A stretch of DNA of 64,000 nt from Candidatus Saccharimonadota bacterium (GCA_046350755.1 JAXLZV010000001.1:340790-404789), one strand, 5' to 3'. Positions 11,626 to 22,904 are shown, counted from the stretch's first letter. The notes: generated by a model from the sequence alone, not told the origin. A program made the numbers and translations.

Positions 11626-11791
11626 TACCAGCGGCCGATAAGGGTCGGACTCAAATCTTGTCCTGTTAATAAAAAAGACCCAATCTTGGCAGATGAGTCT
11701 CTTATGGTGAACCTAAAGGGTACTCATTCCGAAATCTTTTATTGTGAACTGGAGGAGCTAGCGAATCAACTCACTGCTCAGGAGAATCACA

Positions 11792-12271
11792 ATGTTTAGG
11801 TTGCTCCGTAAGACGCCAAAGGCCGTGTTAACAAACACCTCGCTATACAACGAGCAATCCTTCTATAACGCATTTGTGCGAGATGTGAAAAGAGCACAAT
11901 CAGCGGTAGTTATTGAAAGCCCGTTCTTGACCGAAAAAAGAGCGCTGTACTTTTCAGGGCTATTCAATAAACTGACCAGAAAAGGTGTGAAAATTCGAGT
12001 AAACACCCGAAATCCACGTCACCATGATAAGCTGCTGGAGATACAAGCCTGGAAATCCATCAGAATCCTTAGAGATAACGGTGTCAAAGTCTATTTCTTT
12101 AATGATATGCGTCACCGCAAGCTTGCAATTATTGATGGTCGAATATTATGGGAAGGTTCACTGAACATTTTGTCACAAGTACTCAGTCGAGAAATTATGC
12201 GTCGTACTAATTCGATTGAGCTAGCTCATCAGATGATTCAGTTTACAAAGATTAACAACAGGTTCTGGTGA
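11792..12271 (+). CDS. phospholipase D-family (single HKD) Nuc-like protein
   Basis: Perfect HxK(x)4D(x)6GSxN motif: HRKLAIIDGRILWEGSLN. A 159-aa single-domain protein like Nuc-type endonucleases. AT-rich codon usage. Confidence 0.75.
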   Translation: MFRLLRKTPKAVLTNTSLYNEQSFYNAFVRDVKRAQSAVVIESPFLTEKRALYFSGLFNKLTRKGVKIRVNTRNPRHHDKLLEIQAWKSIRILRDNGVKVYFFNDMRHRKLAIIDGRILWEGSLNILSQVLSREIMRRTNSIELAHQMIQFTKINNRFW

Positions 12272-12289
12272 TATACTAGAGGTTCAAGT

Positions 12290-12487
12290 ATGCACAATGA
12301 ATACCACATCAATGAAGAAGACATAGCAAAGATTATTAAGTATCTTAAGTTTGAAGATCCTGATAATGCTAACCGTGAATATGCAATTCAGCTTATTGAG
12401 TCAATGCAGATAAGTGGCAACGAAATAGCACGATCAGATGAAGCTTTAGCTGAAGCTATCAGGAAGTACACCCAGAAGAAAAATTAG
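12290..12487 (+). CDS. small acidic hypothetical protein
   Basis: 65-aa ORF 19 nt downstream of the PLD gene. AT-rich. Confidence 0.35.
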   Translation: MHNEYHINEEDIAKIIKYLKFEDPDNANREYAIQLIESMQISGNEIARSDEALAEAIRKYTQKKN

Positions 12488-12489
12488 AA

Positions 12490-12705
12490 CTAATTCGGAA
12501 AGATATCCGACGCCTTAACGCCTAAAACAGCAAATATTTCATACAATGTTTCGACTGATGCAATAGCAGCCCCTTGTTCCAGGGTTGCGTAGTAATTAGT
12601 AGAGAGTCCTACTTTCTCGGCAATTTCTCTCTGGGTGTAACGCCTTGCCTTGCGAGCTTTTTGCAGATTAGTCCCAATTGCTTTTCTCAGTTTAACTTCG
12701 TTCAT
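12490..12705 (-). CDS. XRE-family helix-turn-helix transcriptional regulator
   Basis: LQKARKARRYTQREIAEKVGLSTNYYATLEQG is a classic HTH_3 motif. Confidence 0.8.
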   Translation of the reverse strand: MNEVKLRKAIGTNLQKARKARRYTQREIAEKVGLSTNYYATLEQGAAIASVETLYEIFAVLGVKASDIFPN

Positions 12706-12799
12706 GTTCCTGTAGACTTATTAGAAATATCGTATACGAACTGTATCATATATTGTGTAGTATATCTACTGGTTTCTCAGTTGACGTCGGATGGTAGTA

Positions 12800-13378
12800 C
12801 TAGGTGGAAATAACTACCTTTTGGTAGACGTTGAGTAGAGGATCCATGCCGCCCTCAAAAGCACGTTTATCTGCATCAATAAGCTCACCAGCAGATACTT
12901 GGCTATAATCAAGCAGGTAGCCAGCATGATCCGCAAGTAGAATTAAGAACAAACGAATTGTCCGACCATTGCCTTCTCGAAAGGGATGTAGAGCATTAAG
13001 TTCAGCCGCTAATCTGGTAATCTCTTTAATGAAGGTCTGCTTACCTAGATCAGCAAGATACTGCTTGCCACGTAAATCCTCAAAGATTCGTTCGCCCTCA
13101 ACAATAATGAACGGAGCGTGAGCAAACGGCACGCTACTATCTGCCTTGGCTATATCGACTGTACGGATTTTGCCAGCAAAGTCGTATATATCTTCAAACA
13201 GAATCTTATGGAGATATTTCAAGTAATTAAAATCAAACTGGGTAGGCGGTTTCTCGGTAAGTAGCCTGGCTGTCTTCTTTGTGACGATATCCTGTTCGGC
13301 ATCCTGCAGGGCTTTCGGATCAGAAATACCAAGCTTGTTTTCCAGTACGCTGTCATCATCAGTAAAGTAGTCCGTCAC
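12800..13378 (-). CDS. Fic/Doc-family protein (putative AMPylating toxin)
   Basis: Fic active-site motif HPFREGNGRTIR. Starts with GTG at 13376-13378. Confidence 0.85.
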   Translation of the reverse strand: MTDYFTDDDSVLENKLGISDPKALQDAEQDIVTKKTARLLTEKPPTQFDFNYLKYLHKILFEDIYDFAGKIRTVDIAKADSSVPFAHAPFIIVEGERIFEDLRGKQYLADLGKQTFIKEITRLAAELNALHPFREGNGRTIRLFLILLADHAGYLLDYSQVSAGELIDADKRAFEGGMDPLLNVYQKVVIST

Positions 13379-13382
13379 GGAA

Positions 13383-13511
13383 CTACTTCTTTGTTGCGCT
13401 AGTCATCTGTTTTTCAAGCGTTTTTTTGACAGTCTGAAAATCAAATCCCTCGGCTTCCATACTACGAGCGATACTGGCTATCAAGCGTTGCTTTTTTTCG
13501 GTCTGACTCAT
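13383..13511 (-). CDS. small Fic-inhibitory antitoxin (42 aa)
   Basis: ATG at 13509-13511 gives MSQTEKKQRLIASIARSMEAEGFDFQTVKKTLEKQMTSATKK. It contains the [S/T]xxxE[G/N] inhibitory motif (SMEAEG) of class I Fic antitoxins. Ends 5 nt before the Fic start. Confidence 0.55.
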   Translation of the reverse strand: MSQTEKKQRLIASIARSMEAEGFDFQTVKKTLEKQMTSATKK

Positions 13512-13714
13512 AGCTATATTATATCATAAATGGAAAACCTCTATTGCTATTTACGAGGAGCCATACAGAGCCCCACAACAGAGGAATTACTACCACTGTT
13601 ATTCTACCATAAGCATAGTGCTTATGTCGCAGCTGACTGTTTTTGCGTTTTTGTCATTTTGTTGCCTAGCTATTGCCTCCTTAGACCACCTCTGTTACTC
13701 TTTATGCAATCAGA

Positions 13715-16306
13715 TTGGAAACTACAGGAGCTGCCATGACTGATGATACTGGTGGGCAGATAGTTGAAAGACTACAAACCATTTTACCGTGGTTAGGACT
13801 CCTTGTTGCGTCAATCACTATTCTGGTTTTCGTTATTGGCCTTATCCTCAGACTCTATAACTACTACCGAAAGTACAACCAAGAAGCAGTTTTACTTGAG
13901 TTAACACCACTCGGCTTTACTAACAAAGCTCCACTTGCCACCACTCAGTTATTCTCAGTACTGCATGGTCTGCTGAAATCACGGAGTTTTAAGGATGCAA
14001 TTTTACGCTATGTGCCGTCATTCTCGCTGGAGATAGTATCAACCAAAGACAAAGGTATTCGCTACCTAATACGGTCAAGCAAAGCCAATGAAGAGCTTAT
14101 CCGGCAGGCAGTTGCTGCCTACAGCCCCGATGTTAAGGTTCGAGTCGTGAAAGATAGTCATGAAGCCAAAGGCTTTATGGCTCTCCAAGCCTACAAACAA
14201 ACTGAACACTACGCCATGCCCCTGGATACCTCAAAGTCCCTGCATGAGCACGACCCTGTAGCTTACTTAACCAGCTCTATGACCAAGCTTGAAGATAATG
14301 AACAGGTTAGCCTGCAACTGGTTGTCACACCAGCTGTTATATCTGAAGCCTTTGCGATTGACCGTAAGATACGTCAGGGTTACTGGTCTGGATCAAGTCT
14401 TGAGAAAAAGTTTGGTCATAAAAGTATCTTTCGCATCCTCTTTGCCATTGTAAAACTACCATTCGTAATTGCCTGGAGTATGTTATACGGTTTTCTCTAT
14501 CACGATATACCGGCTAGCTCAAAAGCTACTAACAATGTACCAACAAATACCCATATACCTCCGGCCGAACAAGAACTGCTGGACCGAATGCATGATAAGC
14601 TCACTCAAGATCTCTTCTATGTTGATGTACGGACTCAGATTGTAGCGACAGATAAAACCCGAGCCAAGTCCAGAGCCCAATCACTAGCTAACTCAATGGC
14701 TACCTATGCCACGCCAACCTGGCAAAGACTACGAACCACCAGAGCTTGGATACCGTGGCTTGGTGTGCTACATCGGATATGGGTACTCGATCATCGCTTG
14801 CCGTCACTAGTGCATAGAAATAGTAATGTTTTAAGCTCGACTGAACTGAGTGCCTTATACCATTTCCCTCATAGTACGTCAGCTCGCACTGAAAATGTCG
14901 CTAGGTCACTCAGCAAAACCTTGCCAGCACCAACCTCTCTCAAGAGTGCAAAGTATCTTGATGTGACCTTAGGCAAGAACAGTCACCTTGGCAGCGAAAC
15001 CTTAATAGGCCTCACTGAGGCTGAACGTGAACGGCATGTCTATATTATTGGCGGAACCGGAAACGGTAAAACCACTATGCTTCAGTACGGTATCGTTCAA
15101 GATATTAAAGATGGTAAGGGATTAGCCGTCATTGACCCACACGGAGATATGGCGTTAACACTACTCAAATACATACCGAAAGATCGCATCAAAGACGTTA
15201 TTTACTTTAATCCTGACGATATTGACCACCCACTGGCAATGAACCTGTTGGAAATACCAGACGGTCTGATTGGCAGTGCGCTGGAGCGAGAAAAAGACCG
15301 GGTAACCGAATCAGTCATCTCAGTACTGCGTAAAATATTCTCCGACGATGATTCAGGAGGACATCGGATTGAGTATGTACTTCGAAATGCCATCCAAACA
15401 GCCCTAACAACTGATAATCCCACTATCTTCACGATCTTTGAACTACTCACTAACGACAACTACCGTAAGAAAATAACCAATGCCCTGCCAGCCGGAACCT
15501 TAAAGAACTTCTGGCAGAACGAACTCGGTAAAGCCGGTGCCATGCAACGAGTTAAGATGAGTCACGGTGTCACATCCAAGATTGGCCGCTTTGAATTCTC
15601 ACCAAGTACTAAACGAGTAATGGGTCGACCAAGATCGACCATCGACTTCGATGATATCTTGTCTTCGGGTAAAATCCTGATCTGTAACTTCAGTAAAGGT
15701 AACCTGGGGGAGGATACGTCAGAGCTATTTGGTACAGCTGTGCTGGCTAAACTACAGCTAGCAGCTCTCAGACGATCTCGATTAGCTCAAGATGAACGAG
15801 AACCGTTCTACCTCTATGTTGATGAGTTTCAGAACTTCGCGACTATGCCGTTTGTGCAGATGCTGAGTGAGGCTCGCAAATACAAACTATTCCTGACCAT
15901 GGCTGAACAGTCTACAGCCCAGCAGAATGAGCAACGGTTAGTACAGATAATCTTAGCTAATGTCGGTACAGTTATAAGTTTTAGGACTGGTAGTCCGGTA
16001 GATGAGCAATTAGTATTGCCGTTATTTAGGCCATTTATTGATGAAGGCGAGATAGCTAATTTACCAAGCTACAATTTCTATGCCAGGCTGAGTGCTATAC
16101 GGTCCCAGGAACCGATGTCTGGGGAGACTATGTTACTGGAAGATAAGGGAGATAAGGCTATGGCTCGGAAAGTCATAGAGTCTTCGAGGAAGTTGTATGC
16201 GTATGAGTATGAAGATGCAGCGGAGAAAAAAGTGAATAAAACCGAGTCTCATGAAACACAAGACGCTAAAGATAATGACTCGGAAGATGAGCCGATTAAG
16301 GTGTAG
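13715..16306 (+). CDS. VirD4/TraD-like coupling-protein-type P-loop ATPase with N-terminal membrane domain
   Basis: 863 aa with an N-terminal TM helix. Walker A YIIGGTGNGKTT, AVIDPHGD, and Walker B LYVDEFQNF, as in T4SS coupling proteins. Acidic C-terminal tail. Confidence 0.6.
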   Translation: METTGAAMTDDTGGQIVERLQTILPWLGLLVASITILVFVIGLILRLYNYYRKYNQEAVLLELTPLGFTNKAPLATTQLFSVLHGLLKSRSFKDAILRYVPSFSLEIVSTKDKGIRYLIRSSKANEELIRQAVAAYSPDVKVRVVKDSHEAKGFMALQAYKQTEHYAMPLDTSKSLHEHDPVAYLTSSMTKLEDNEQVSLQLVVTPAVISEAFAIDRKIRQGYWSGSSLEKKFGHKSIFRILFAIVKLPFVIAWSMLYGFLYHDIPASSKATNNVPTNTHIPPAEQELLDRMHDKLTQDLFYVDVRTQIVATDKTRAKSRAQSLANSMATYATPTWQRLRTTRAWIPWLGVLHRIWVLDHRLPSLVHRNSNVLSSTELSALYHFPHSTSARTENVARSLSKTLPAPTSLKSAKYLDVTLGKNSHLGSETLIGLTEAERERHVYIIGGTGNGKTTMLQYGIVQDIKDGKGLAVIDPHGDMALTLLKYIPKDRIKDVIYFNPDDIDHPLAMNLLEIPDGLIGSALEREKDRVTESVISVLRKIFSDDDSGGHRIEYVLRNAIQTALTTDNPTIFTIFELLTNDNYRKKITNALPAGTLKNFWQNELGKAGAMQRVKMSHGVTSKIGRFEFSPSTKRVMGRPRSTIDFDDILSSGKILICNFSKGNLGEDTSELFGTAVLAKLQLAALRRSRLAQDEREPFYLYVDEFQNFATMPFVQMLSEARKYKLFLTMAEQSTAQQNEQRLVQIILANVGTVISFRTGSPVDEQLVLPLFRPFIDEGEIANLPSYNFYARLSAIRSQEPMSGETMLLEDKGDKAMARKVIESSRKLYAYEYEDAAEKKVNKTESHETQDAKDNDSEDEPIKV

Positions 16307-16336
16307 CAAGCCATAGAGCCACCACAAAATATACCG

Positions 16337-16514
16337 TAAGAGTCAGCGAACAGCTAGCCCGTTGCCCCGAGGAGCGTTGTTGCCTGGATTGACTTCTCCA
16401 GCATTGAAGTTCGCGTTGTCTGCGTTGTCGACATTGTCTGGGAAGGCTGAACGAGACCACAAGTTAGCGTTGTCACCCTGGTTGTCGAAGCCCTCGTCCC
16501 AGTTGCCAGCAAAA
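16337..16514 (-). repeat. DGR template repeat (TR)
   Basis: Non-coding copy, ~95% similar to 18626-18803. Holds the unmutated adenines (T on + strand) at most differing positions. Lies 3' of the RT gene. Confidence 0.75.
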
Positions 16515-16741
16515 CCCGGAACACACCACCGGACTACCTTACAATACTACTCATTATCCTGCACTCAGCGTACCGAATGCAGGCAGGTCTTGGTGGCACT
16601 TCCTCTCTAGAACTAGCCTTCGTCAAGTCAAGGCTAGTGAGTACTGTCTCTTACATATGCTTATCTGCCTGACTGCTCGCCGTGTAACAAGCAATAGTTG
16701 CCACCAAGCATTACCCGGTTGCCGCCAAGCAAAGCATACTG

Positions 16742-17848
16742 TTATTGTACCCCCCCCCGAAGTTTTAAACCACCAAGAAGCTTTTTGTGTTTATAATGCT
16801 TCACCAGCCCTCGATACGATGCTTCGGTTTCTTTTGAGCAATCCGGGTTCGAAAGTGCCGCTAGTAAGTTGCGTTTCAAGCGTTTGCCTGGGTGCAAGCG
16901 AAATGGGTAGACAACCGCCCCAAGAAAGGCCACACCACGGCTACATTCCTGCAAGTGTCGCTTGTGGGGGTGTAGTTTTAGTGACAACTGACCCTCTACA
17001 TAGCGCTCTATTGTCCTGGCAGCTTCAACCAGTTCATTTTTATCACTAGAGACGATATAGAAATCATCAACGTAGCGTCCATAGTGTTTGAAGCCTAATT
17101 CTAGCGTTACAAACCAATCTAGTTGGTCAAGATAGATATTACTCAGTAGCTGTGAGGTTAGGTTGCCGATGGCAATACCACGGCCTTTGGGCTGGTGAAA
17201 CAAACTCTTGCTGGGCGGCAGACCTTTCCAAGCACTACGCGGACAGTTGAACACTGCCTCTTTCAGTGGGTCGTTAAAGATAATGACTTTCCACAAAAAC
17301 TTACACAATTGGTAGGCGTAGCCCTGATTAGGAAACTGCCGATTCAGTCCCCACATGGCCCGGCTGTAGAGCTTTTTGCGCTCCAGACTCATGAAGTATC
17401 CCTGAAAATCAAGCTTTAGTATGTAGGCTGGACGAGTGTAGTTACGACTGACTGAACGAATGTGGTGGTCAAGCCGACGAATACCATACAGTGTGCCCTT
17501 GCCGAGACGGCAGCTGTAGTTATCTTCAATAAACCGGGCATCCCACCAACTACTTACTTGGTTGAACAAAAAGTGATGCACGACTCGGTCACGAAAGGCA
17601 GCTGCAAATATCTCTCGTTTGATGGGTTTGTTGACAATAAAGGCTGTTGAGGGCCGTGGCGTGTAGGTACGCGTATGAATTTCGTGTGCCAGTGCCACCA
17701 GTTCTGATTTGGCAATTTTGTCGAACTTTTCCACTTCTGGCTTCTTTGTTTTACCACGTCGGGCGTCTACATAAGCTTTCCCGAGTTCTTTTGAGAGCCA
17801 CGCAGTACGGTTGTGTTGGGTGTTTGTTTTCATTGTGTTTGCTGACAA
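16742..17848 (-). CDS. DGR-type reverse transcriptase
   Basis: RT motifs: RDRVVHHFL, ILKLDFQGYF, the DGR hallmark IGNLTSQLLSNIYL, and YGRYVDDFYIV. 368 aa. Confidence 0.85.
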   Translation of the reverse strand: MSANTMKTNTQHNRTAWLSKELGKAYVDARRGKTKKPEVEKFDKIAKSELVALAHEIHTRTYTPRPSTAFIVNKPIKREIFAAAFRDRVVHHFLFNQVSSWWDARFIEDNYSCRLGKGTLYGIRRLDHHIRSVSRNYTRPAYILKLDFQGYFMSLERKKLYSRAMWGLNRQFPNQGYAYQLCKFLWKVIIFNDPLKEAVFNCPRSAWKGLPPSKSLFHQPKGRGIAIGNLTSQLLSNIYLDQLDWFVTLELGFKHYGRYVDDFYIVSSDKNELVEAARTIERYVEGQLSLKLHPHKRHLQECSRGVAFLGAVVYPFRLHPGKRLKRNLLAALSNPDCSKETEASYRGLVKHYKHKKLLGGLKLRGGVQ

Positions 17849-17916
17849 ATTTTATTTTGAATCTAGACAACTCGGTTAAAAGATTAGTTTTAGATCTGCT
17901 GCCCCCTCGGCTTACG

Positions 17917-18177
17917 TTAGCCGTATAACTGACTATGCGTACCAACCATTTGGTACAAAAATACCTCGTTATCTACAATTTCATACAGTGCTCGTAAGTC
18001 ACCTGTTATATCGATGCTGTAGAAACGGCTCATCTTGCCACTAAGTTTATGTAACCGAAGTGACTCGTCATTGGGCTTTTGCGACCAGAGCCTTATGGCG
18101 TCTGTGGTTTTTTGTTGCATCTTTGGAGTGAGTTTTTTGTACTGTTTTCTGAATTTTTTACTATACCTTATAGTCAT
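17917..18177 (-). CDS. RelE/YafQ-family toxin
   Basis: 86 aa. The C-terminus ...LYQMVGTHSQLYG parallels YafQ ...RTGTHAALFG. Overlaps the upstream antitoxin by 4 nt. Confidence 0.7.
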   Translation of the reverse strand: MTIRYSKKFRKQYKKLTPKMQQKTTDAIRLWSQKPNDESLRLHKLSGKMSRFYSIDITGDLRALYEIVDNEVFLYQMVGTHSQLYG

Positions 18178-18485
18178 TTTTCATTAAGCCACGCAAAGCT
18201 TTCTTCAACATTATTAAAAGCAGGCGAATAATCATCTAGCTCACCAGCACGTACTTTTTTTGACATAGCCAGTAATTCGGCCTCCACTTCTGGCCTAAGC
18301 CGTGGCGAATCCGATATAGTTATGCTCCGGGTATTAACGAACTCTCGCAAACTGGCAGCTACCACTATACTCATAGGCAAGCCGAGCTCTTTGGCAACAC
18401 TCTGAGCCCTCTTTTTTAGAGCGGGATCAATTTTTACATTCAATACAGTACTCATACTAACCATTGTATACACTTTAGTTAGCAT
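18174..18485 (-). CDS. DinJ/RelB-family antitoxin
   Basis: LNVKIDPALKKRAQSVAKELGLPMSIVVAASLREFV resembles the DinJ N-terminal ribbon-helix-helix (VRARIDEDLKNQAADVLAGMGLTISDLVRITL). Confidence 0.7.
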   Translation of the reverse strand: MLTKVYTMVSMSTVLNVKIDPALKKRAQSVAKELGLPMSIVVAASLREFVNTRSITISDSPRLRPEVEAELLAMSKKVRAGELDDYSPAFNNVEESFAWLNEK

Positions 18486-18541
18486 GTCAATACATAGATT
18501 TTGTTATTTTCGTTTGCTGGGCAGCCCAGTCGACTCGGCGG

Positions 18542-18565
18542 GGTTAGGGGTGGTCACCCCTAACC
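18542..18565 (-). promoter_or_regulatory. GC-rich hairpin downstream of VR (candidate DGR homing hairpin)
   Basis: GGTTAGGGG-tggtca-CCCCTAACC lies ~60 nt 3' of the VR end, as DGR target genes often show. Confidence 0.4.
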
Positions 18566-18619
18566 GCCCGGGCCTCGCTTTGTGGACAACCCAGAAATTA
18601 GCCCCAGATAAATCTGAGC

Positions 18620-20047
18620 CTAATTTAAGAGACAGCGAACAGCCAGCCCGCCGCCCCGAGGAGCGCCGCTGCCCGGATTGACTTCTCCAGCATCGAAGCC
18701 CGCGTAGTCTGCGCCGTCGACACCGTCCGAGCTGGCCGAACGAGACCACAAGAAAGCGCCGAGACCCTGGCCGTCGAAGCCCTCGAACCAGTAGCCAGCA
18801 AAAGTACCTTTAAACGGTCCATCGTGTTGCCACTTGGCAATGTTTGCACCACTGTCTGCGTACTGGCCAGTACCACCAAAGGCTATGTCCAGGTTGGAGT
18901 AATCACCAGAAGCGGTGCCTGTCTCTGTTTCTTCGTCATAGCTGAAGCCAACCGTTGGCAAGCGCCATCCGCTCGGGCAGATGGAGTATGGTGCATCACC
19001 ATCAGTTTCAGTATGAGAGGTTCTGGATTCACCAGCGGTCACTGCAGGCCAGTTGTAGAGATAGCCGTAGTTGGTTTCGCCCTCTCCAGTGTCACCGGTG
19101 ACCGGGCCGTAGGCTCCGGGATTGTCAAAGTCAGTAGTGCCGGTGGTGGTGAGTTGTGGCAAGGTAAAGTTACTAGCTACGTCTGAGTCGCTTGGTGTCA
19201 GGGTGAGGGTGCCGGTAGTTGATCCTAGTTTTAGGTTCTCGAGCATCCAGCAGTTGTTGTCGGCTAATTTGGCTACTTGGTAGGTTTGGTTGTCGCCTCT
19301 TGTGTCGGTCAGGGTGATGACAGCTTCTTCATTGGTGCCGTTGTAGATAGGTAGAGCACTACATTGACTGGAGGTGAAGCTTTGGAGAGTAGCTCCTGCT
19401 TCACCCTCTGCTTCATTGTCAGTGACAGCGTAGTTGAGCTTTAGTTCTTTTTGCCCGGGCGTAACACTACCATCTATAGCAAAGGTGAGGGTTACGTCGG
19501 TTGTATCATTGCTTGATGCAGCGTCGGTAGCTTTGAGAGTCAGTGGAGCGTCTCCAGGGTTGAGACTAGTGTCAGTCGTGACATCACCACCCTTGAGTTT
19601 GATGCCAATGCCTGGTTCTGGTTCAGTCAGAGTAGCAGTCAGAGTGTAGCCATCAGTGTTCGCAGTACCGCTTATGAGCGTTGTGGTAGCTGTAGCTGTA
19701 CCACCACCTTGAGGAACGGTTATGTGAATAGTGTTCTGGTCGGTACCGAGGGAGAGAGTGGGAGCGGCAGAGGCAATGGGGAGGTTGGTGGTAGAAAGCA
19801 CAGTAGCAAGGGTAAGCAGGACGAGGATACTGAAGCCCCGAGAGCTCGATTTACGTATGTTGGCTAATTTAAAGTGAGATGAACGACGAGTAGTTTTGTA
19901 CCACAGGAAGAGGCCGGCTGTCAGGAGGATTAGGGCAATCAGGGTTGGCAGGAATAATGATGTACCAGTGTCGGCCAGGTTGCCACCAGCACCAGAGTCG
20001 CCACCAACGATAACGTTAATAGTCTGGGTCACGGTTTGGCTGTCCAT
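18620..20047 (-). CDS. DGR variable target protein (membrane-anchored, C-type-lectin/Fib_succ_major-like C-terminal domain)
   Basis: C-terminal region DNNCWMLENL...YGYLYNW...ICPSGWRLPT...GYWFEGFDG...GGGLAVRCLLN. The last ~60 codons coincide with the VR. N-terminal hydrophobic segments are present. True start uncertain. Confidence 0.8.
   Translation of the reverse strand: MDSQTVTQTINVIVGGDSGAGGNLADTGTSLFLPTLIALILLTAGLFLWYKTTRRSSHFKLANIRKSSSRGFSILVLLTLATVLSTTNLPIASAAPTLSLGTDQNTIHITVPQGGGTATATTTLISGTANTDGYTLTATLTEPEPGIGIKLKGGDVTTDTSLNPGDAPLTLKATDAASSNDTTDVTLTFAIDGSVTPGQKELKLNYAVTDNEAEGEAGATLQSFTSSQCSALPIYNGTNEEAVITLTDTRGDNQTYQVAKLADNNCWMLENLKLGSTTGTLTLTPSDSDVASNFTLPQLTTTGTTDFDNPGAYGPVTGDTGEGETNYGYLYNWPAVTAGESRTSHTETDGDAPYSICPSGWRLPTVGFSYDEETETGTASGDYSNLDIAFGGTGQYADSGANIAKWQHDGPFKGTFAGYWFEGFDGQGLGAFLWSRSASSDGVDGADYAGFDAGEVNPGSGAPRGGGLAVRCLLN
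18626..18803 (-). repeat. DGR variable repeat (VR)
   Basis: Counterpart of the TR. 27 of 32 mismatches are at TR-adenine positions (TR A to G or T in VR, minus-strand sense). Confidence 0.75.
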
Positions 20048-20136
20048 GGTCGGCTCCTTTCTTGTTTAGTTATATTTGTAGCTTTATCTATTGAAATAAA
20101 CTGCTTACGTATATAGTACAGGAGATGGTTTGGAAT

Positions 20137-20868
20137 TCAAATAATATACACCCCTTTCTCTGTCACTCGTATGTTTACACTAGCATAGCTACGATCCAAT
20201 GCTTTCTCAACCAGCCTTCCCACTGTCTTTTCAAGTTTGGCTGACTCACATATGAGCAATACTTCTGGATGCAGCTTCCTAGGCTTGTATTTATGCCATA
20301 CCTCCAGCTCTGCAAAAGTAATGTACTTCCGTACTGTTTTCCGCAGTGTCCAGTAGGTCATATTATCTTCCAAACACTCAAGAAAGTAAGATTTATCTGT
20401 CTCTTTGTCTACTATGTATGCGTCTGGTCTAGTTTTAGGTACGTAGGCTTTGTCCATAAGCTCCGTCTTGCTATAGAACTTAAATCTATTAGGATAGGTA
20501 TGTTTGAGCTGTATATATGCCTTGAAGACATTCAGTCGGTGATTAATTCTGTGATCTTCAGCTCGTTTATCGTGGTAGATGCTTCTAAGTGCCGATTCAT
20601 TGCTGTATGGTTGTGTTCGTAAGAATCGTACGCCTTTGGTTGCTAAGTAATATGTAGCCGGTTTGCCTTTAAGCATGTAGCTACTATTATAGTTCATACC
20701 AATATAGCCTTGATCTACTAATATCTTTAACCTATTGGATATTACTCTAGGGTTAGCCTGTTGGTTCTTGGCAAATAAAGCTATGGTTGTAAATCTAAAC
20801 TTATAGAGTGTGTTAAGGATAGTAATTTGCTGAGGGTTTAATGGTCGTCGGTATTTTGGTTCTCTCAC
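20137..20868 (-). CDS. replication-relaxation-like protein (mobile-element associated), tentative
   Basis: N-terminal QQITILNTLYKFRFTTIALF resembles the replication-relaxation family signature (L..L..FRFLT..QI). AT-rich. Confidence 0.4.
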   Translation of the reverse strand: MREPKYRRPLNPQQITILNTLYKFRFTTIALFAKNQQANPRVISNRLKILVDQGYIGMNYNSSYMLKGKPATYYLATKGVRFLRTQPYSNESALRSIYHDKRAEDHRINHRLNVFKAYIQLKHTYPNRFKFYSKTELMDKAYVPKTRPDAYIVDKETDKSYFLECLEDNMTYWTLRKTVRKYITFAELEVWHKYKPRKLHPEVLLICESAKLEKTVGRLVEKALDRSYASVNIRVTEKGVYII

Positions 20869-21063
20869 TACTTCATCTGCTCCTATACGTAGTATAGGTA
20901 ATTATATAACAATAACGCACAGATATAACAGATTAGAAATGATGATATAGGTATCCTAATGGTAAGATATCCACAATTGTAAATATTACTCGGTATATAC
21001 TCTTGAACTAACGCTATATTCTATAGTAAACTATAGCTATAATCAATAGTTTACGAGGGTATC

Positions 21064-21177
21064 ATGACTAATGAAATATCGACTAGTGCAGTAGAAAGGG
21101 ACGAACAGATCGAGCTACTAGCGGATATTTTACTTGAGCTGGTACTTGAGGAGAATCAGGATGATATCAGCTCGTAA
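21064..21177 (+). CDS. small acidic ORF (37 aa) upstream of recombinase, tentative
   Basis: GAGGG RBS 4 nt before ATG; MTNEISTSAVERDEQIELLADILLELVLEENQDDISS. Overlaps the recombinase start. Confidence 0.25.
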   Translation: MTNEISTSAVERDEQIELLADILLELVLEENQDDISS

Positions 21178-22870
21178 CCAGAACGCCATTGCCGCTATCC
21201 GGGTCTCTACCACTAAGCAGGGTCGTGACGGTGACTCACCCGAAGCTCAGAAAGAGCAAATCGAACGCTTTGCACACAACAAAGGTATTACGATTAAAAA
21301 GTTCTTTGTCTTTATGGAATCGGCCAGCAAAGAACAACAGCCTATGCAAGAGGCAGTTGATTACTGCAAGGATAAGAAAAATGATATCGGCCTATTCATC
21401 GTTAAGTCAATCGATCGTTTTACCCGCGGTGGCTCAATGTCCTATGATTCGCTTAAAACCCAGCTCGATAGCCACCGTGTGACCCTCATTGATACCTACG
21501 GCGTTATTAGCCAGGAGAAGGTTAACACCCTAGAGCATCTCGGACATAGCTACAGGTGGAGCACCTACTCACCCAGTCGCAAGTCAGAGATGCTGGAAGC
21601 CGAACGATCGAAAGACGAAGTTAGAGATATCTTAAGTCGCGTCATTGGGGCTGAGATACGCTATACCCAAATGGGCTATTGGATGCGTAAACCACCCTAC
21701 GGCTTTATAGGAGAAAAAGTCGAAACTCAGCACGGCAAACGTACCACATTGAAGCCGCATCCTGAAGAAGCGAAGTTTATTGTTAAACTATTTGAATTTA
21801 GAGCCAGTGGACAATTCTCAGATAAAGAAATTGCCAGCAAGCTCAATGACTTGGGTTATCGTGGCCGACCCCAGTACCGACGCTCTAAAGAAAACCGAAA
21901 TCGTGTGATTGGTAAAACCGAAGGCAGTCAGCTTGACCATAAAAAGCTCTGGAAAATGGTACGCAATCCAATCTATGCAGGCGTGAATGTCGAAAAGTGG
22001 ACCAAATACCAGCCAGTGAAATGTATGTTCGATGGTCTGGTGTCAGTTGAGCTGTTCAACCGAGCTAACAAAGGCAAACGAACTATTATTGAAATGCCTG
22101 GAAACAAAATAGCCATCCATGATAGCATCGCTCCACGCAATGCCACAGTACGAGGCACACGCAACAATGACTTTGCCTACAAGCACTATGTCATGTGCCC
22201 TGAATGTAATAAACCTCTGTCAGGTAGCACTTCACGGGGCAAAACCGGCAAATACTACTCATACTACCACTGTGATAAAAGAGGTCACAAATTCAGAGTC
22301 ACAAAAGAAGATCTTGAGACCAAGGTCTATGATTTCATTAATGATTTAGTCTTTTCTAAAGAACGAGTAGATGAAGTCTTTGCGATTGTACGCGAAAAGT
22401 ATGAGCAACATCTAGCCCTCTATGAAGCAAATACATCGGCCATCGAATCACAGATTACTCAGCTTGAAGCTCAAGCCAGAGAGCTCACCAAAAGTTTTAC
22501 CACTATTGCTTCCTCAGCCCAGAAATACGTTAACGAAGAGCTAGAGGGTATCGATCAGCAAATTAAGCACTTAGCACTAGAAAGGACGAACATGGAAACT
22601 AAAAAACCTATGGATATAGACAAGGTTATAGCGAGAGTCAGGAAGTTTTCCGAAAACATCGGACAGGTTATTAATCAACAGAGTAGCGACAGCAAAAAAG
22701 CTCAACTTTTCGGGATCATATTCAAAAAATTACCAACCTACAATGATTTAGCTTTCCGAAACCAAAAATCACCCCATATTAAAGGGGTGAATCCAGTCTT
22801 CCAAGCCCTGCTTGGCGATAATTTTCCTATGGTGACCCCACGGAGAATCGAACTCCGATTACCAGATTGA
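21161..22870 (+). CDS. large serine recombinase (integrase)
   Basis: NAIAAIRVSTTKQ catalytic Ser motif, followed by a recombinase domain, a zinc ribbon (CPECNKP...YYHC) and a coiled-coil. GAGGAG RBS before the ATG at 21161. Confidence 0.85.
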   Translation: MISARNQNAIAAIRVSTTKQGRDGDSPEAQKEQIERFAHNKGITIKKFFVFMESASKEQQPMQEAVDYCKDKKNDIGLFIVKSIDRFTRGGSMSYDSLKTQLDSHRVTLIDTYGVISQEKVNTLEHLGHSYRWSTYSPSRKSEMLEAERSKDEVRDILSRVIGAEIRYTQMGYWMRKPPYGFIGEKVETQHGKRTTLKPHPEEAKFIVKLFEFRASGQFSDKEIASKLNDLGYRGRPQYRRSKENRNRVIGKTEGSQLDHKKLWKMVRNPIYAGVNVEKWTKYQPVKCMFDGLVSVELFNRANKGKRTIIEMPGNKIAIHDSIAPRNATVRGTRNNDFAYKHYVMCPECNKPLSGSTSRGKTGKYYSYYHCDKRGHKFRVTKEDLETKVYDFINDLVFSKERVDEVFAIVREKYEQHLALYEANTSAIESQITQLEAQARELTKSFTTIASSAQKYVNEELEGIDQQIKHLALERTNMETKKPMDIDKVIARVRKFSENIGQVINQQSSDSKKAQLFGIIFKKLPTYNDLAFRNQKSPHIKGVNPVFQALLGDNFPMVTPRRIELRLPD

Positions 22871-22904
22871 AAATCTGGTGTCCTAACCGTTAGACGATGG
22901 GGCC
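22830..22904 (-). tRNA. tRNA-Glu (anticodon TTC)
   Basis: GGCCCCATCGTCTAACGGTTAGGACACCAGATTTTCAATCTGG...TTCGATTCTCCGTGGGGTCACCA. Cloverleaf with a 7-bp acceptor stem; CCA encoded. Confidence 0.8.

What the first reader, a model, noticed from the sequence alone, without database searches (positions are those of the whole stretch)
16337..20047. Complete DGR with adenine-specific TR/VR pair, lectin-fold target and atypical architecture
Segments 16337-16514 and 18626-18803 align base for base over ~178 nt.
- Of 32 mismatches, 27 are at positions where the 16.3-kb copy has T on the + strand (A on the transcribed minus strand) and the 18.6-kb copy has C or A. This is the adenine-mutagenesis signature of a DGR.
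- The variable copy encodes the C-terminal ~60 residues of ORF 18620-20047 (...GYWFEGFDG...GGGLAVRCLLN). This follows a CWMxENL / YGxLYNW / CPSGWRLP region typical of the C-type-lectin/Fib_succ_major-fold DGR targets.
- The invariant copy is non-coding. It sits next to an RT with the DGR hallmark IGNLTSQ and YVDDF box.

Atypical points:
- The TR lies 3' of the RT rather than between target and RT.
- No Avd-like four-helix-bundle gene is present.
- A 9-bp GC hairpin sits ~60 nt past the VR.
Basis: seen in the sequence. Interest (0 to 1): 0.75.

Follow-up and report, generated by a model that had tools for sequence, protein, structure and literature searches.

The report
Active Avd-less DGR in Saccharibacteria
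This is a real, recently active diversity-generating retroelement on a mobile island of a Saccharibacteria genome. It is an ordinary member of a known group, but its conserved RNA suggests how such elements copy their template without the usual helper protein.

Summary
TR 16337-16514 and VR 18626-18803 (minus strand) align over 178 nt without gaps. Of 32 mismatches, 27 fall at TR adenines (P about 1e-15).

The RT is closest to the Bordetella DGR RT in both sequence and predicted fold. The target's C-terminal domain has the FGE-type C-lectin fold, like TvpA.

The element is active or was so recently. The same 10.2-kb island in another metagenome differs at exactly 30 positions, all inside the VR.

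The "atypical" layout (target-VR, RT, TR, no Avd) is the norm in all 16 close relatives. It is already catalogued as architecture A2.

Comparative analysis added two points:
- The 225-nt RT-TR spacer is a covarying structured RNA with a pseudoknot. An 8-nt strand in it (NNYAAGAG) pairs with the TR's last 6 nt plus the 2 nt beyond it. This pairing holds in 25 distinct sequences with compensatory changes. It resembles the Bordetella template:primer duplex, but the primer side lies 5' of the TR, and nothing is conserved 3' of the TR.

Verdict: a known kind of system, with a probably new RNA-architecture variant. The priming role is inferred, not shown.

The parts
18620..20047 (-). DGR target gene (475 aa). 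It has an N-terminal LAxTG motif plus a TM hairpin, an Ig/pilin-like beta-sandwich (about residues 97-210), and a C-terminal FGE-type C-lectin (FISUMP) domain.
18626..18803 (-). Variable repeat (VR), encoding the last 59 residues of the target.
   Evidence: It has 32 mismatches to the TR, 27 at TR adenines. All 30 differences between the window and L081 over 10,216 bp lie here.
18595..18625 (-). Small hairpin starting 1 nt after the VR (AAAUUAG...CUAAUUU). In relatives it is a tight hairpin with covarying stems, and some relatives lack it.
18518..18593 (-). Conserved structured element that follows the VR.
   Evidence: RNAalifold finds compensatory change in 18 of 25 pairs and an invariant G.U. 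Single-sequence folding gives z = -5.2. The CM R1 hits once per locus, always 3' of the VR, in 28 + 10 loci.
18174..18485 (-). RelB-like antitoxin, part of an insertion inside the cassette and not a DGR component.
   Evidence: Pfam RelB is a weak hit. A TTGACA-16-TACAAT promoter lies at 18490-18463. The gene is absent from relatives L001-L019.
17917..18177 (-). YafQ/RelE-family toxin, part of the same insertion.
   Evidence: Pfam YafQ_toxin, 41 bits.
16742..17833 (-). DGR reverse transcriptase, 363 aa from the ATG. The ORF extends to a TTG at 17848.
   Evidence: phmmer against PDB gives best hit 8ub7_A (Bordetella bRT) at E 3e-27, with IGSLTSQ aligned to IGNLTSQ. The AF2 model has pLDDT 92 and its best Foldseek hit is 8ub7_A, TM 0.76/0.85. 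Only RVT_1 is found in Pfam.
16515..16741 (-). Structured non-coding RNA scaffold between the RT and the TR. Helices: P0 16733-16737/16657-16661; pseudoknot P1 16700-16708/16589-16597; Pd 16640-16646/16542-16548; Pa 16632-16638/16612-16618; Pc 16573-16582/16559-16568 (loop GGUACGCU).
   Evidence: Alignment A5. Of 46 pairs, 28 show compensatory change, 97.9% of cells are paired, 0 of 500 shuffles reach this, and slid controls reach at most 46%. CM R2 scores 134 bits here and hits every close-clade locus.
16647..16655 (-). Primer-like strand AUGUAAGAG (pairing 8 nt = 16648-16655) followed by an invariant A at 16647.
   Evidence: RNAalifold predicts its pairing with the TR 3' end unprompted. The tally over 25 sequences is, and it appears in the single-sequence MFE.
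16337..16514 (-). Template repeat (TR). It is non-coding, with an in-frame TGA at 16343-16345.
   Evidence: It is identical in L081.
16335..16342 (-). Template strand of the long-range duplex: the last 6 nt of the TR (CUCUUA) plus the 2 nt beyond it.

Best explanation
This is a complete and recently active diversity-generating retroelement of the Saccharibacteria (Patescibacteria) lineage, carried on an integrative mobile island.

Proposed order of events:
1. The TR is transcribed on the minus strand, most simply as the tail of the target/RT transcript or from a start near the RT stop codon.
2. The RT copies the TR into cDNA and misincorporates at adenines.
3. The cDNA replaces the VR. This rewrites up to about 28 codons of the ligand-binding face of a surface-exposed C-lectin-fold protein.

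Shown here: the A-specific TR/VR relation, the DGR-class RT, the CLec-type target, VR-restricted polymorphism between samples, the absence of Avd, and two covarying structured elements.

Inferred, at about 50% confidence: the 225-nt RT-TR spacer folds into a pseudoknotted scaffold. Its strand 5'-NNYAAGAG-3' pairs with the TR's 3' end (5'-CUCUURNN-3'). The result is a template:primer-type RNA homoduplex like Bordetella TR117-129:Sp47-56, but with the primer strand 5' of the TR instead of 3'. cDNA synthesis would then be cis-primed from the last paired G (16648) or the adjacent invariant A (16647). This would explain two things: nothing is conserved 3' of the TR, and the TR TGA / VR TGT difference next to the duplex is fixed in every relative.

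Also inferred: the structured element 3' of the VR marks the target site for cDNA integration, a role analogous to the BPP-1 IMH-plus-hairpin.
For: - A-bias: 27 of 32 mismatches at TR adenines, P 1e-15.
- Three VR alleles from three samples have 27/32, 27/28 and 22/22 mismatches at A. Of 44 TR adenines, 36 are changed in at least one allele.
- The window and L081 differ at 30 of 10,216 positions, all inside the VR. The TR is identical.
- The RT matches bRT: E 3e-27 in sequence and TM 0.76/0.85 in fold.
- The target's C-terminal domain matches TvpA and FGE-like folds and FISUMP.
- The same gene order occurs in 16 of 16 close relatives.
- Scaffold covariation: 28 of 46 pairs compensatory, 97.9% paired, controls far lower.
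- RNAalifold finds the spacer:TR-3'-end helix unprompted.
- In 25 distinct sequences the 8 bp are paired 21-25 of 25 times. Pair types include UA/CG/UG, CG/GC/UA/AU/GU, and an internal GC>AU switch in L206. The next position outward pairs only 5 of 25 times.
- TGA(TR)/TGT(VR) is fixed in all relatives.
- The Bordetella duplex and cis-priming are described in Handa et al., bioRxiv 10.1101/2023.10.23.563531.
- VR element: 18 of 25 pairs compensatory. It stays with the VR after a TA insertion (window) and after an inversion (L210).
Against: - No transcript, cDNA or read-level data exist. RNA ends are unknown, and no convincing promoter was found for a separate TR RNA.
- The 8-bp helix could be a purely architectural closing helix.
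- Five of its eight pairs are nearly invariant, so covariation rests on three to four positions.
- Sequences are phylogenetically related, so counts overstate independent events.
- The window VR has 5 non-A differences from the TR, which is more than the textbook picture allows.
- In almost all relatives the VR element lies immediately 5' of the RT start. A role in RT expression is therefore not excluded.
Confidence: 0.9

Rival explanations
1. It is an active DGR, but the spacer:TR-3'-end helix is only a structural closing or termination helix. It might define the RNA 3' end or hold the TR in a loop. cDNA synthesis would be primed another way, such as by nicked target DNA at the VR element, a processed RNA 3'-OH, or de novo.
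For: The helix closes a loop containing the whole TR. Bordetella also has an upstream-downstream duplex with a non-priming role, the cPRT Stop. The conserved VR-adjacent element could be a nicking or recognition site. Naorem et al. 2017 proposed priming by nicked template RNA (title and abstract seen).
Against: The helix involves the exact 3' end of the TR, where cDNA synthesis must begin, not the 5' end where a stop would act. It ends sharply at 8 bp and is followed by an invariant A facing the TR A, whose VR counterpart is never overwritten. Nothing else conserved lies 3' of the TR to supply a primer.
Confidence: 0.35
2. It is a decayed or domesticated DGR remnant. The TR/VR pair records past mutagenesis, but the element no longer works.
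For: The cassette is interrupted by a toxin-antitoxin insertion. The window VR has 5 non-A differences that could be post-DGR drift.
Against: Two copies of the island from different samples are identical over 10,186 non-VR positions, yet differ at 30 of 178 VR positions. The TR is unchanged. The RT ORF is intact, its catalytic motifs are conserved and its model has pLDDT 92. All cis elements are intact.
Confidence: 0.04
3. It is not a DGR. The RT belongs to another class (group II intron, retron, or a defence RT such as DRT or Abi), and the 178-nt repeat is a diverged duplication of the target's 3' end.
For: Pfam sees only generic RVT_1. NCBIfam and PADLOC give sub-threshold hits to group II, retron and DRT models.
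Against: The best sequence and structure matches are to the Bordetella DGR RT, by many orders of magnitude. The motif-4 IGNLTSQ is present. Mismatches are A-specific at P 1e-15. No Rfam intron or retron RNA is found in 15800-20300.
Confidence: 0.01

Closest known systems
Bordetella phage BPP-1 DGR (mtd-avd-TR-Sp-brt)
   Same: Both perform adenine-specific TR-to-VR information transfer. The RT is the closest solved homolog (8ub7_A), with the same motif 4 (IGxLTSQ). The VR sits at the C-terminus of a C-lectin-fold protein. The 3' ends of VR and TR differ (IMH/IMH*-like), and a structured element lies just 3' of the VR. A short RNA duplex involves the 3' end of the TR and is followed by a purine.
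   Different: There is no Avd. The TR lies 3' of the RT, and no conserved spacer lies 3' of the TR. The strand that pairs with the TR 3' end sits about 300 nt upstream, inside a pseudoknotted scaffold 5' of the TR. The RT has about 37 extra residues between motifs 3 and 4. The VR-side element is a 75-nt multi-helix structure, not an 8-bp hairpin. The host is a chromosome-borne integrative island rather than a phage.
DGR architecture A2 (RT-TR, no accessory gene) of Wu et al. 2018, NAR 46:11 (PMC5758913)
   Same: The gene order target, RT, TR with no accessory gene matches.
   Different: That survey classified gene order only. It reported B3 (TR-(avd)-RT) for 90% of its CPR set, so this Saccharibacteria clade is not the typical CPR type described there. 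No RNA elements were described.
Patescibacteria/CPR DGRs (clade 2 of Roux et al. 2021, PMC8144416; Paul et al. 2017)
   Same: The host phylum matches, the element is cellular rather than phage-borne, and the target carries a C-terminal CLec-type VR domain.
   Different: Roux et al. note that clade-2 targets usually lack recognisable transmembrane or conserved domains. Here the target has a TM hairpin, an LAxTG motif and a FISUMP domain. Placement in clade 2 was not tested phylogenetically.
Treponema denticola TvpA DGR
   Different: The Treponema element has HRDC and Avd accessory genes (architecture C). Sequence identity is only 13%.

Membership tests
Diversity-generating retroelement (DGR) | RT of the DGR clade, with motif 4 [ILV]GxxxSQ instead of the group II QGxxxSP | tested here: met
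   IGNLTSQ aligns to bRT IGSLTSQ. The best PDB sequence hit is 8ub7_A at E 3e-27, against 1e-5 for group II RTs. The best fold match is bRT at TM 0.76/0.85.
Diversity-generating retroelement (DGR) | A TR/VR near-repeat whose mismatches fall at TR adenines | tested here: met
   27 of 32 mismatches at A, P 1.2e-15. The two further alleles give 27/28 and 22/22.
Diversity-generating retroelement (DGR) | VR inside a protein-coding target, usually the C-terminal C-lectin or Ig fold. TR adenines sit mostly in AAY codons at positions 1-2. | tested here: met
Diversity-generating retroelement (DGR) | Ongoing or recent diversification confined to the VR | tested here: met
   30 of 30 differences over 10,216 bp between two samples lie in the VR, and the TR is invariant. 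Read-level heterogeneity was not testable.
Diversity-generating retroelement (DGR) | IMH/IMH*: a conserved 3' end of VR and TR with fixed differences that set directionality | tested here: inconclusive
   GUUCGCUG[U/A]CUCUUA has a fixed T (VR) versus A (TR) in all 17 relatives. There is only one difference and no long G/C tract, and function is untested.
Bordetella-type DGR (avd-TR-Sp-RT) | An Avd accessory protein encoded in the cassette | tested here: not met
   All coding space between 11.8 and 22.9 kb is assigned. There is no Avd-size ORF and no Avd Pfam hit. None lies between the target, RT and TR in relatives such as L004.
Bordetella-type DGR (avd-TR-Sp-RT) | A conserved spacer RNA 3' of the TR that carries the priming nucleotide and protein-binding stem-loops | tested here: not met
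   Conservation stops 2 nt after CUCUUA in 14-18 relatives. The conserved structured RNA lies 5' of the TR.
DGR architecture A2 (Wu et al. 2018) | Core order RT then TR, with no accessory gene | tested here: met
   The definition was read.
Patescibacteria DGR clade 2 (Roux et al. 2021) | The RT falls inside the clade in an RT phylogeny | not tested
   The supporting evidence is circumstantial only. All close RT and target homologs with names come from Saccharibacteria/Patescibacteria MAGs.

The most novel reading that the evidence does not exclude
Avd-less DGRs of this Saccharibacteria clade may use a circularly permuted DGR RNA. In it, the primer-bearing, RT-binding scaffold lies 5' of the template and reaches over about 300 nt to pair with the TR's 3' end. 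A single protein (an RT with an extra two-helix insertion between motifs 3 and 4) then cis-primes adenine-mutagenic cDNA synthesis without Avd. A separate 75-nt structured element marks the VR as the homing site.
Probability: 0.4. Interest if true: 0.7.

Novelty: new variant of a known kind. Interest (0 to 1): 0.5.

Why it matters
DGRs are the most powerful natural protein diversifiers known. They are especially common in ultra-small episymbiotic bacteria such as Saccharibacteria, where surface-protein variation probably governs attachment to hosts.

The only mechanistic model, from Bordetella phage, needs Avd and a spacer RNA 3' of the template. How Avd-less DGRs start reverse transcription is open.

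This locus and its relatives offer a compact one-protein, one-RNA system with a specific prediction supported by covariation: an 8-bp duplex whose primer strand lies upstream of the TR. That prediction can be tested in vitro, and it could simplify engineered DGR mutagenesis tools.

The locus also shows a DGR travelling as cargo of an integrative island and diversifying between two sampled populations with no other change in 10 kb.

Tried and rejected
- Rfam scan of 15800-20300 at E up to 5: no hit, so neither RNA element is a described family.
- phmmer of the target against PDB sequences: no meaningful hit.
- Search for att-type direct repeats flanking the island: none of 14 nt or more. This is as expected for a serine recombinase.
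- Metagenome pattern scan AAGAGACNNTAYYCACTNG: 120 stretches returned, of which only 6 were true scaffolds.
- Scaffold CM R2 and VR-element CM R1 against the ~50%-identity Saccharibacteria/Nanosyncoccus DGR loci: no hits. Both RNAs are clade-specific or diverged beyond detection.
- Sigma-70-type promoter for an independent TR RNA near the conserved GGGGGGUACAAUA at the RT stop: not called by the scan. That conservation may simply be the RT C-terminus.
- A possible kissing interaction between scaffold GCUUUG and VR-element CAAAGC: rejected. L016 changes the scaffold side without compensation (read).
- Additional VRs or targets in the window: none.
- A-to-I-type deamination as the cause of the A>G excess in the window allele: rejected. 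The other alleles are A>T-rich.
Full report
**Observation.** The two segments align without gaps at an offset of 2289 nt, giving TR 16337-16514 and VR 18626-18803, read on the minus strand.
- Of 32 mismatches, 27 lie where the TR has A. The TR has 44 A in 178 nt, so the hypergeometric P is 1.2e-15.
- The changes are A>G 20 and A>T 7.
- In the VR frame the TR reads FAGNWDEGFDNQGDNANLW...GNGLAVR*LL, with 10 AAC and 3 AAT codons and an in-frame TGA. It is therefore non-coding.
- The VR encodes the last 59 residues of ORF 18620-20047.
- No other VR-like copy exists in the 64 kb, even when TR adenines are treated as wildcards.

**The proteins.**
- ORF 16742-17848 carries IGNLTSQ and YVDDF. A relative's gene call suggests the true start is the ATG at 17833.
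- Its best match among all PDB sequences is the Bordetella DGR RT at E 3e-27 (8ub7_A), with IGSLTSQ aligned to IGNLTSQ. Group II intron and retron RTs score about 1e-5.
- An AlphaFold model built from 56 homologs has pLDDT 92. Its best superposition is on 8ub7_A, with TM 0.76/0.85.
- The spacing from the motif-3 Asp to motif 4 is 80 residues, against 43 in bRT. The extra part forms two helices, at 157-171 and 177-190. A role replacing Avd is speculation.
- The target hits FISUMP/Fib_succ_major only at threshold.
- Its model has pLDDT 78. It shows an N-terminal membrane hairpin, an Ig/pilin-like sandwich and a C-terminal domain.

**Activity.** The target's closest homolog led to a 202-kb contig from another metagenome (L081).
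- Over 10,216 aligned bases (window 12620-22835) the two sequences differ at exactly 30 positions. All 30 lie inside the 178-nt VR, and the TR is identical.
- A third sample (L082) has 28 of its 48 differences in the VR.
- The three VR alleles differ from the TR at 32, 28 and 22 positions, of which 27, 27 and 22 are TR adenines. Of the 44 adenines, 36 are substituted in at least one allele.
- The theoretical repertoire is about 6e20 peptides.
- This is what a working DGR produces. It is hard to reconcile with a relic.

**Is the architecture unusual?** RT homologs number in the thousands, and those with names come from Saccharibacteria/Patescibacteria.
- Self-comparison of 80 genome loci showed one pattern in all 16 close relatives (71-95% RT identity) with usable flanks. 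The VR ends about 115 nt upstream of the RT, and the TR starts 230-250 nt downstream of it on the same strand.
- No Avd-sized gene lies in between.
- In the window every gap between genes is accounted for, and no small ORF matches Avd.
- Wu et al. 2018 already define architecture A2 as RT-TR without accessory genes. Roux et al. 2021 describe a Patescibacteria-restricted DGR clade.
- The layout is therefore atypical only against the Bordetella prototype.
- What is specific to this lineage (window, L081, L082) is a RelB/YafQ toxin-antitoxin pair with its own strong promoter. It is inserted between the VR-side element and the RT.

**The RT-TR spacer is a structured RNA that reaches the TR's 3' end.** Alignment of relatives shows the 225-nt spacer is strongly conserved, whereas conservation stops 2 nt after the TR's terminal CUCUUA.
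- On 18 distinct sequences, RNAalifold itself predicted a long-range helix between spacer NNUAAGAG and the TR 3' end CUCUUANN.
- I then tested a six-helix model with a pseudoknot. Cells paired were 97.9%, and 28 of 46 pairs showed compensatory change.
- None of 500 shuffles reached this. Slid controls gave at most 46% paired and at most 9 covarying pairs.
- A covariance model of the core found the scaffold in every close-clade locus, including eight newly fetched ones, but not in the ~50%-identity clade.
- Over 25 distinct sequences, the 8 bp of the spacer:TR helix are paired in 21, 23, 25, 25, 25, 24, 25 and 25 cases. The next position outward pairs in only 5 of 25.
- Pair types are UA17/CG7/UG1, CG15/GC3/UA2/AU2/GU1 and UG7/UA7/CG4/AU3. 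L206 also has an internal switch, UAAAAG:CUUUUA.
- The helix also appears in the single-sequence MFE fold.

**Mechanistic reading (inferred).** In the Bordetella RNP, a TR117-129:Sp47-56 RNA homoduplex sits in the RT active site. Sp A56 primes synthesis and TR G117 is the first template base. Sp lies 3' of the TR, and Avd braces the duplex.
- That study surveyed RNA elements only in Avd-containing DGRs. I found no paper in the library dealing with RNA elements of Avd-less DGRs.
- Here the equivalent duplex exists, but the primer-side strand (16648-16655) lies 5' of the TR inside a pseudoknotted scaffold. It is followed by an invariant A (16647) that faces TR A16343.
- That TR adenine is part of TGA, and its VR counterpart is always T (TGT, Cys) in all 17 relatives.
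- This fits a cDNA that starts at or just beyond this position, or a transfer boundary just upstream of it.
- I rate the helix itself as real (about 0.9) and its priming role as about 0.5.
- The main rival is a purely architectural closing helix, with priming by another route.

**The VR-side element.**
- Of its 25 pairs, 18 show compensatory change. It has an invariant G.U, an invariant U-GACC-A loop and conserved internal loops.
- The window copy folds with z = -5.2.
- Its covariance model hits once per locus, always just 3' of the VR.
- In most relatives it also abuts the RT start. It stays with the VR in two independent rearrangements: the TA insertion here, and L210, where the RT is on the other strand.
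- Wobble pairs argue for a sense-strand RNA or ssDNA structure rather than a symmetric cruciform.
- By analogy with the BPP-1 IMH-plus-hairpin (Guo et al. 2011, listed), I infer a target-marking role. A role in RT expression is not excluded.

**Context.** The DGR lies in a low-GC island. Its genes are:
- a PLD-like nuclease
- an HTH protein
- a Fic/DOC protein
- a TraD/VirD4-like ATPase
- a Replic_Relax protein
- a large serine recombinase that overlaps tRNA-Glu

Homology to L081 ends exactly at the tRNA's CCA end (22835), and L081 continues differently beyond it. The island is therefore mobile.

**Verdict.** The observation and interpretation are correct. The element is a genuine, recently active DGR of a known Patescibacteria type and a catalogued architecture, so the bare finding is a new member of a known kind. 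The comparative RNA results point to a variant mechanism: an Avd-less DGR with the primer strand upstream of the template. That mechanism is worth testing, so I rate overall interest at 0.5.

Noticed in passing
window ~11700-22835; L081:110-10325: The DGR is cargo of a low-GC integrative island. Its genes are a PLD-like nuclease, an HTH protein, Fic/DOC, a TraD/VirD4-like ATPase, Replic_Relax and a large serine recombinase. The island abuts the 3' CCA end of tRNA-Glu (22830-22904, minus strand), and the recombinase ORF overlaps the tRNA. An identical island sits in a different flank in another metagenome.
   Followed up: partly
window 17917-18490 (-): A RelB/YafQ toxin-antitoxin pair with a near-consensus promoter (TTGACA-16-TACAAT, 18490-18463) is inserted inside the DGR cassette, between the VR-side element and the RT. 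It is present in the window, L081 and L082, and absent in relatives L001-L019.
   Followed up: partly
window 19765-20047 (-), target residues 1-95: The target begins with a short beta-strand, a conserved LAxTG motif, a TM helix and an Arg/Lys-rich loop. A second, signal-peptide-like TM follows, ending ASA|AP. This is an LPXTG-type sorting signal placed at the N-terminus. It is conserved across the family, and some sources annotate homologs as LPXTG cell-wall anchored. Its topology and processing are unexplained.
   Followed up: no
window 18730-18733, 18763, 18787 (VR) vs 16441-16444, 16474, 16498 (TR): The window VR has five non-adenine differences from the TR. Two are the G immediately 5' of a substituted A (GAC>TTC, GAC>CTC). 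Three form a cluster (TTCCCA>AGCTCG). L081 shares only one of them and L082 shares none.
   Followed up: partly
L022-L080 (e.g. L037:3564-7372): A sister clade of Saccharibacteria/Nanosyncoccus DGRs (about 50% RT identity, many from ruminant guts) also has the TR just 3' of the RT, but in inverted orientation relative to the RT and target. L037 has an extra ORF of about 267 aa between the target and the RT. Neither RNA model from the window's clade hits these loci.
   Followed up: partly
L210:2501-4496: One clade member has target-VR, VR element, scaffold and TR on one strand, with the RT convergent on the other strand. The TR end appears to overlap the RT 3' end.
   Followed up: no
L209:1369-1710: One clade member has a TR reduced to about 50 nt by an internal deletion. 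It keeps the scaffold and the CAAGAG:CUCUUG complementarity. A tRNA-Ser follows immediately.
   Followed up: no
L001, L006, L009 (MAG AWTP1-31); L005, L008; L014, L019: Single Saccharibacteria MAGs carry two or three paralogous DGRs of this clade. Many DGR loci sit at contig ends, consistent with assembly breaks at hypervariable or repeated sequence.
   Followed up: no
L204:1078-2340: In one relative the DGR target (420 aa) carries a faint prepilin N-methylation (N_methyl) signal instead of the LAxTG/TM hairpin. This hints that the clade diversifies pilus-like surface proteins.
   Followed up: no
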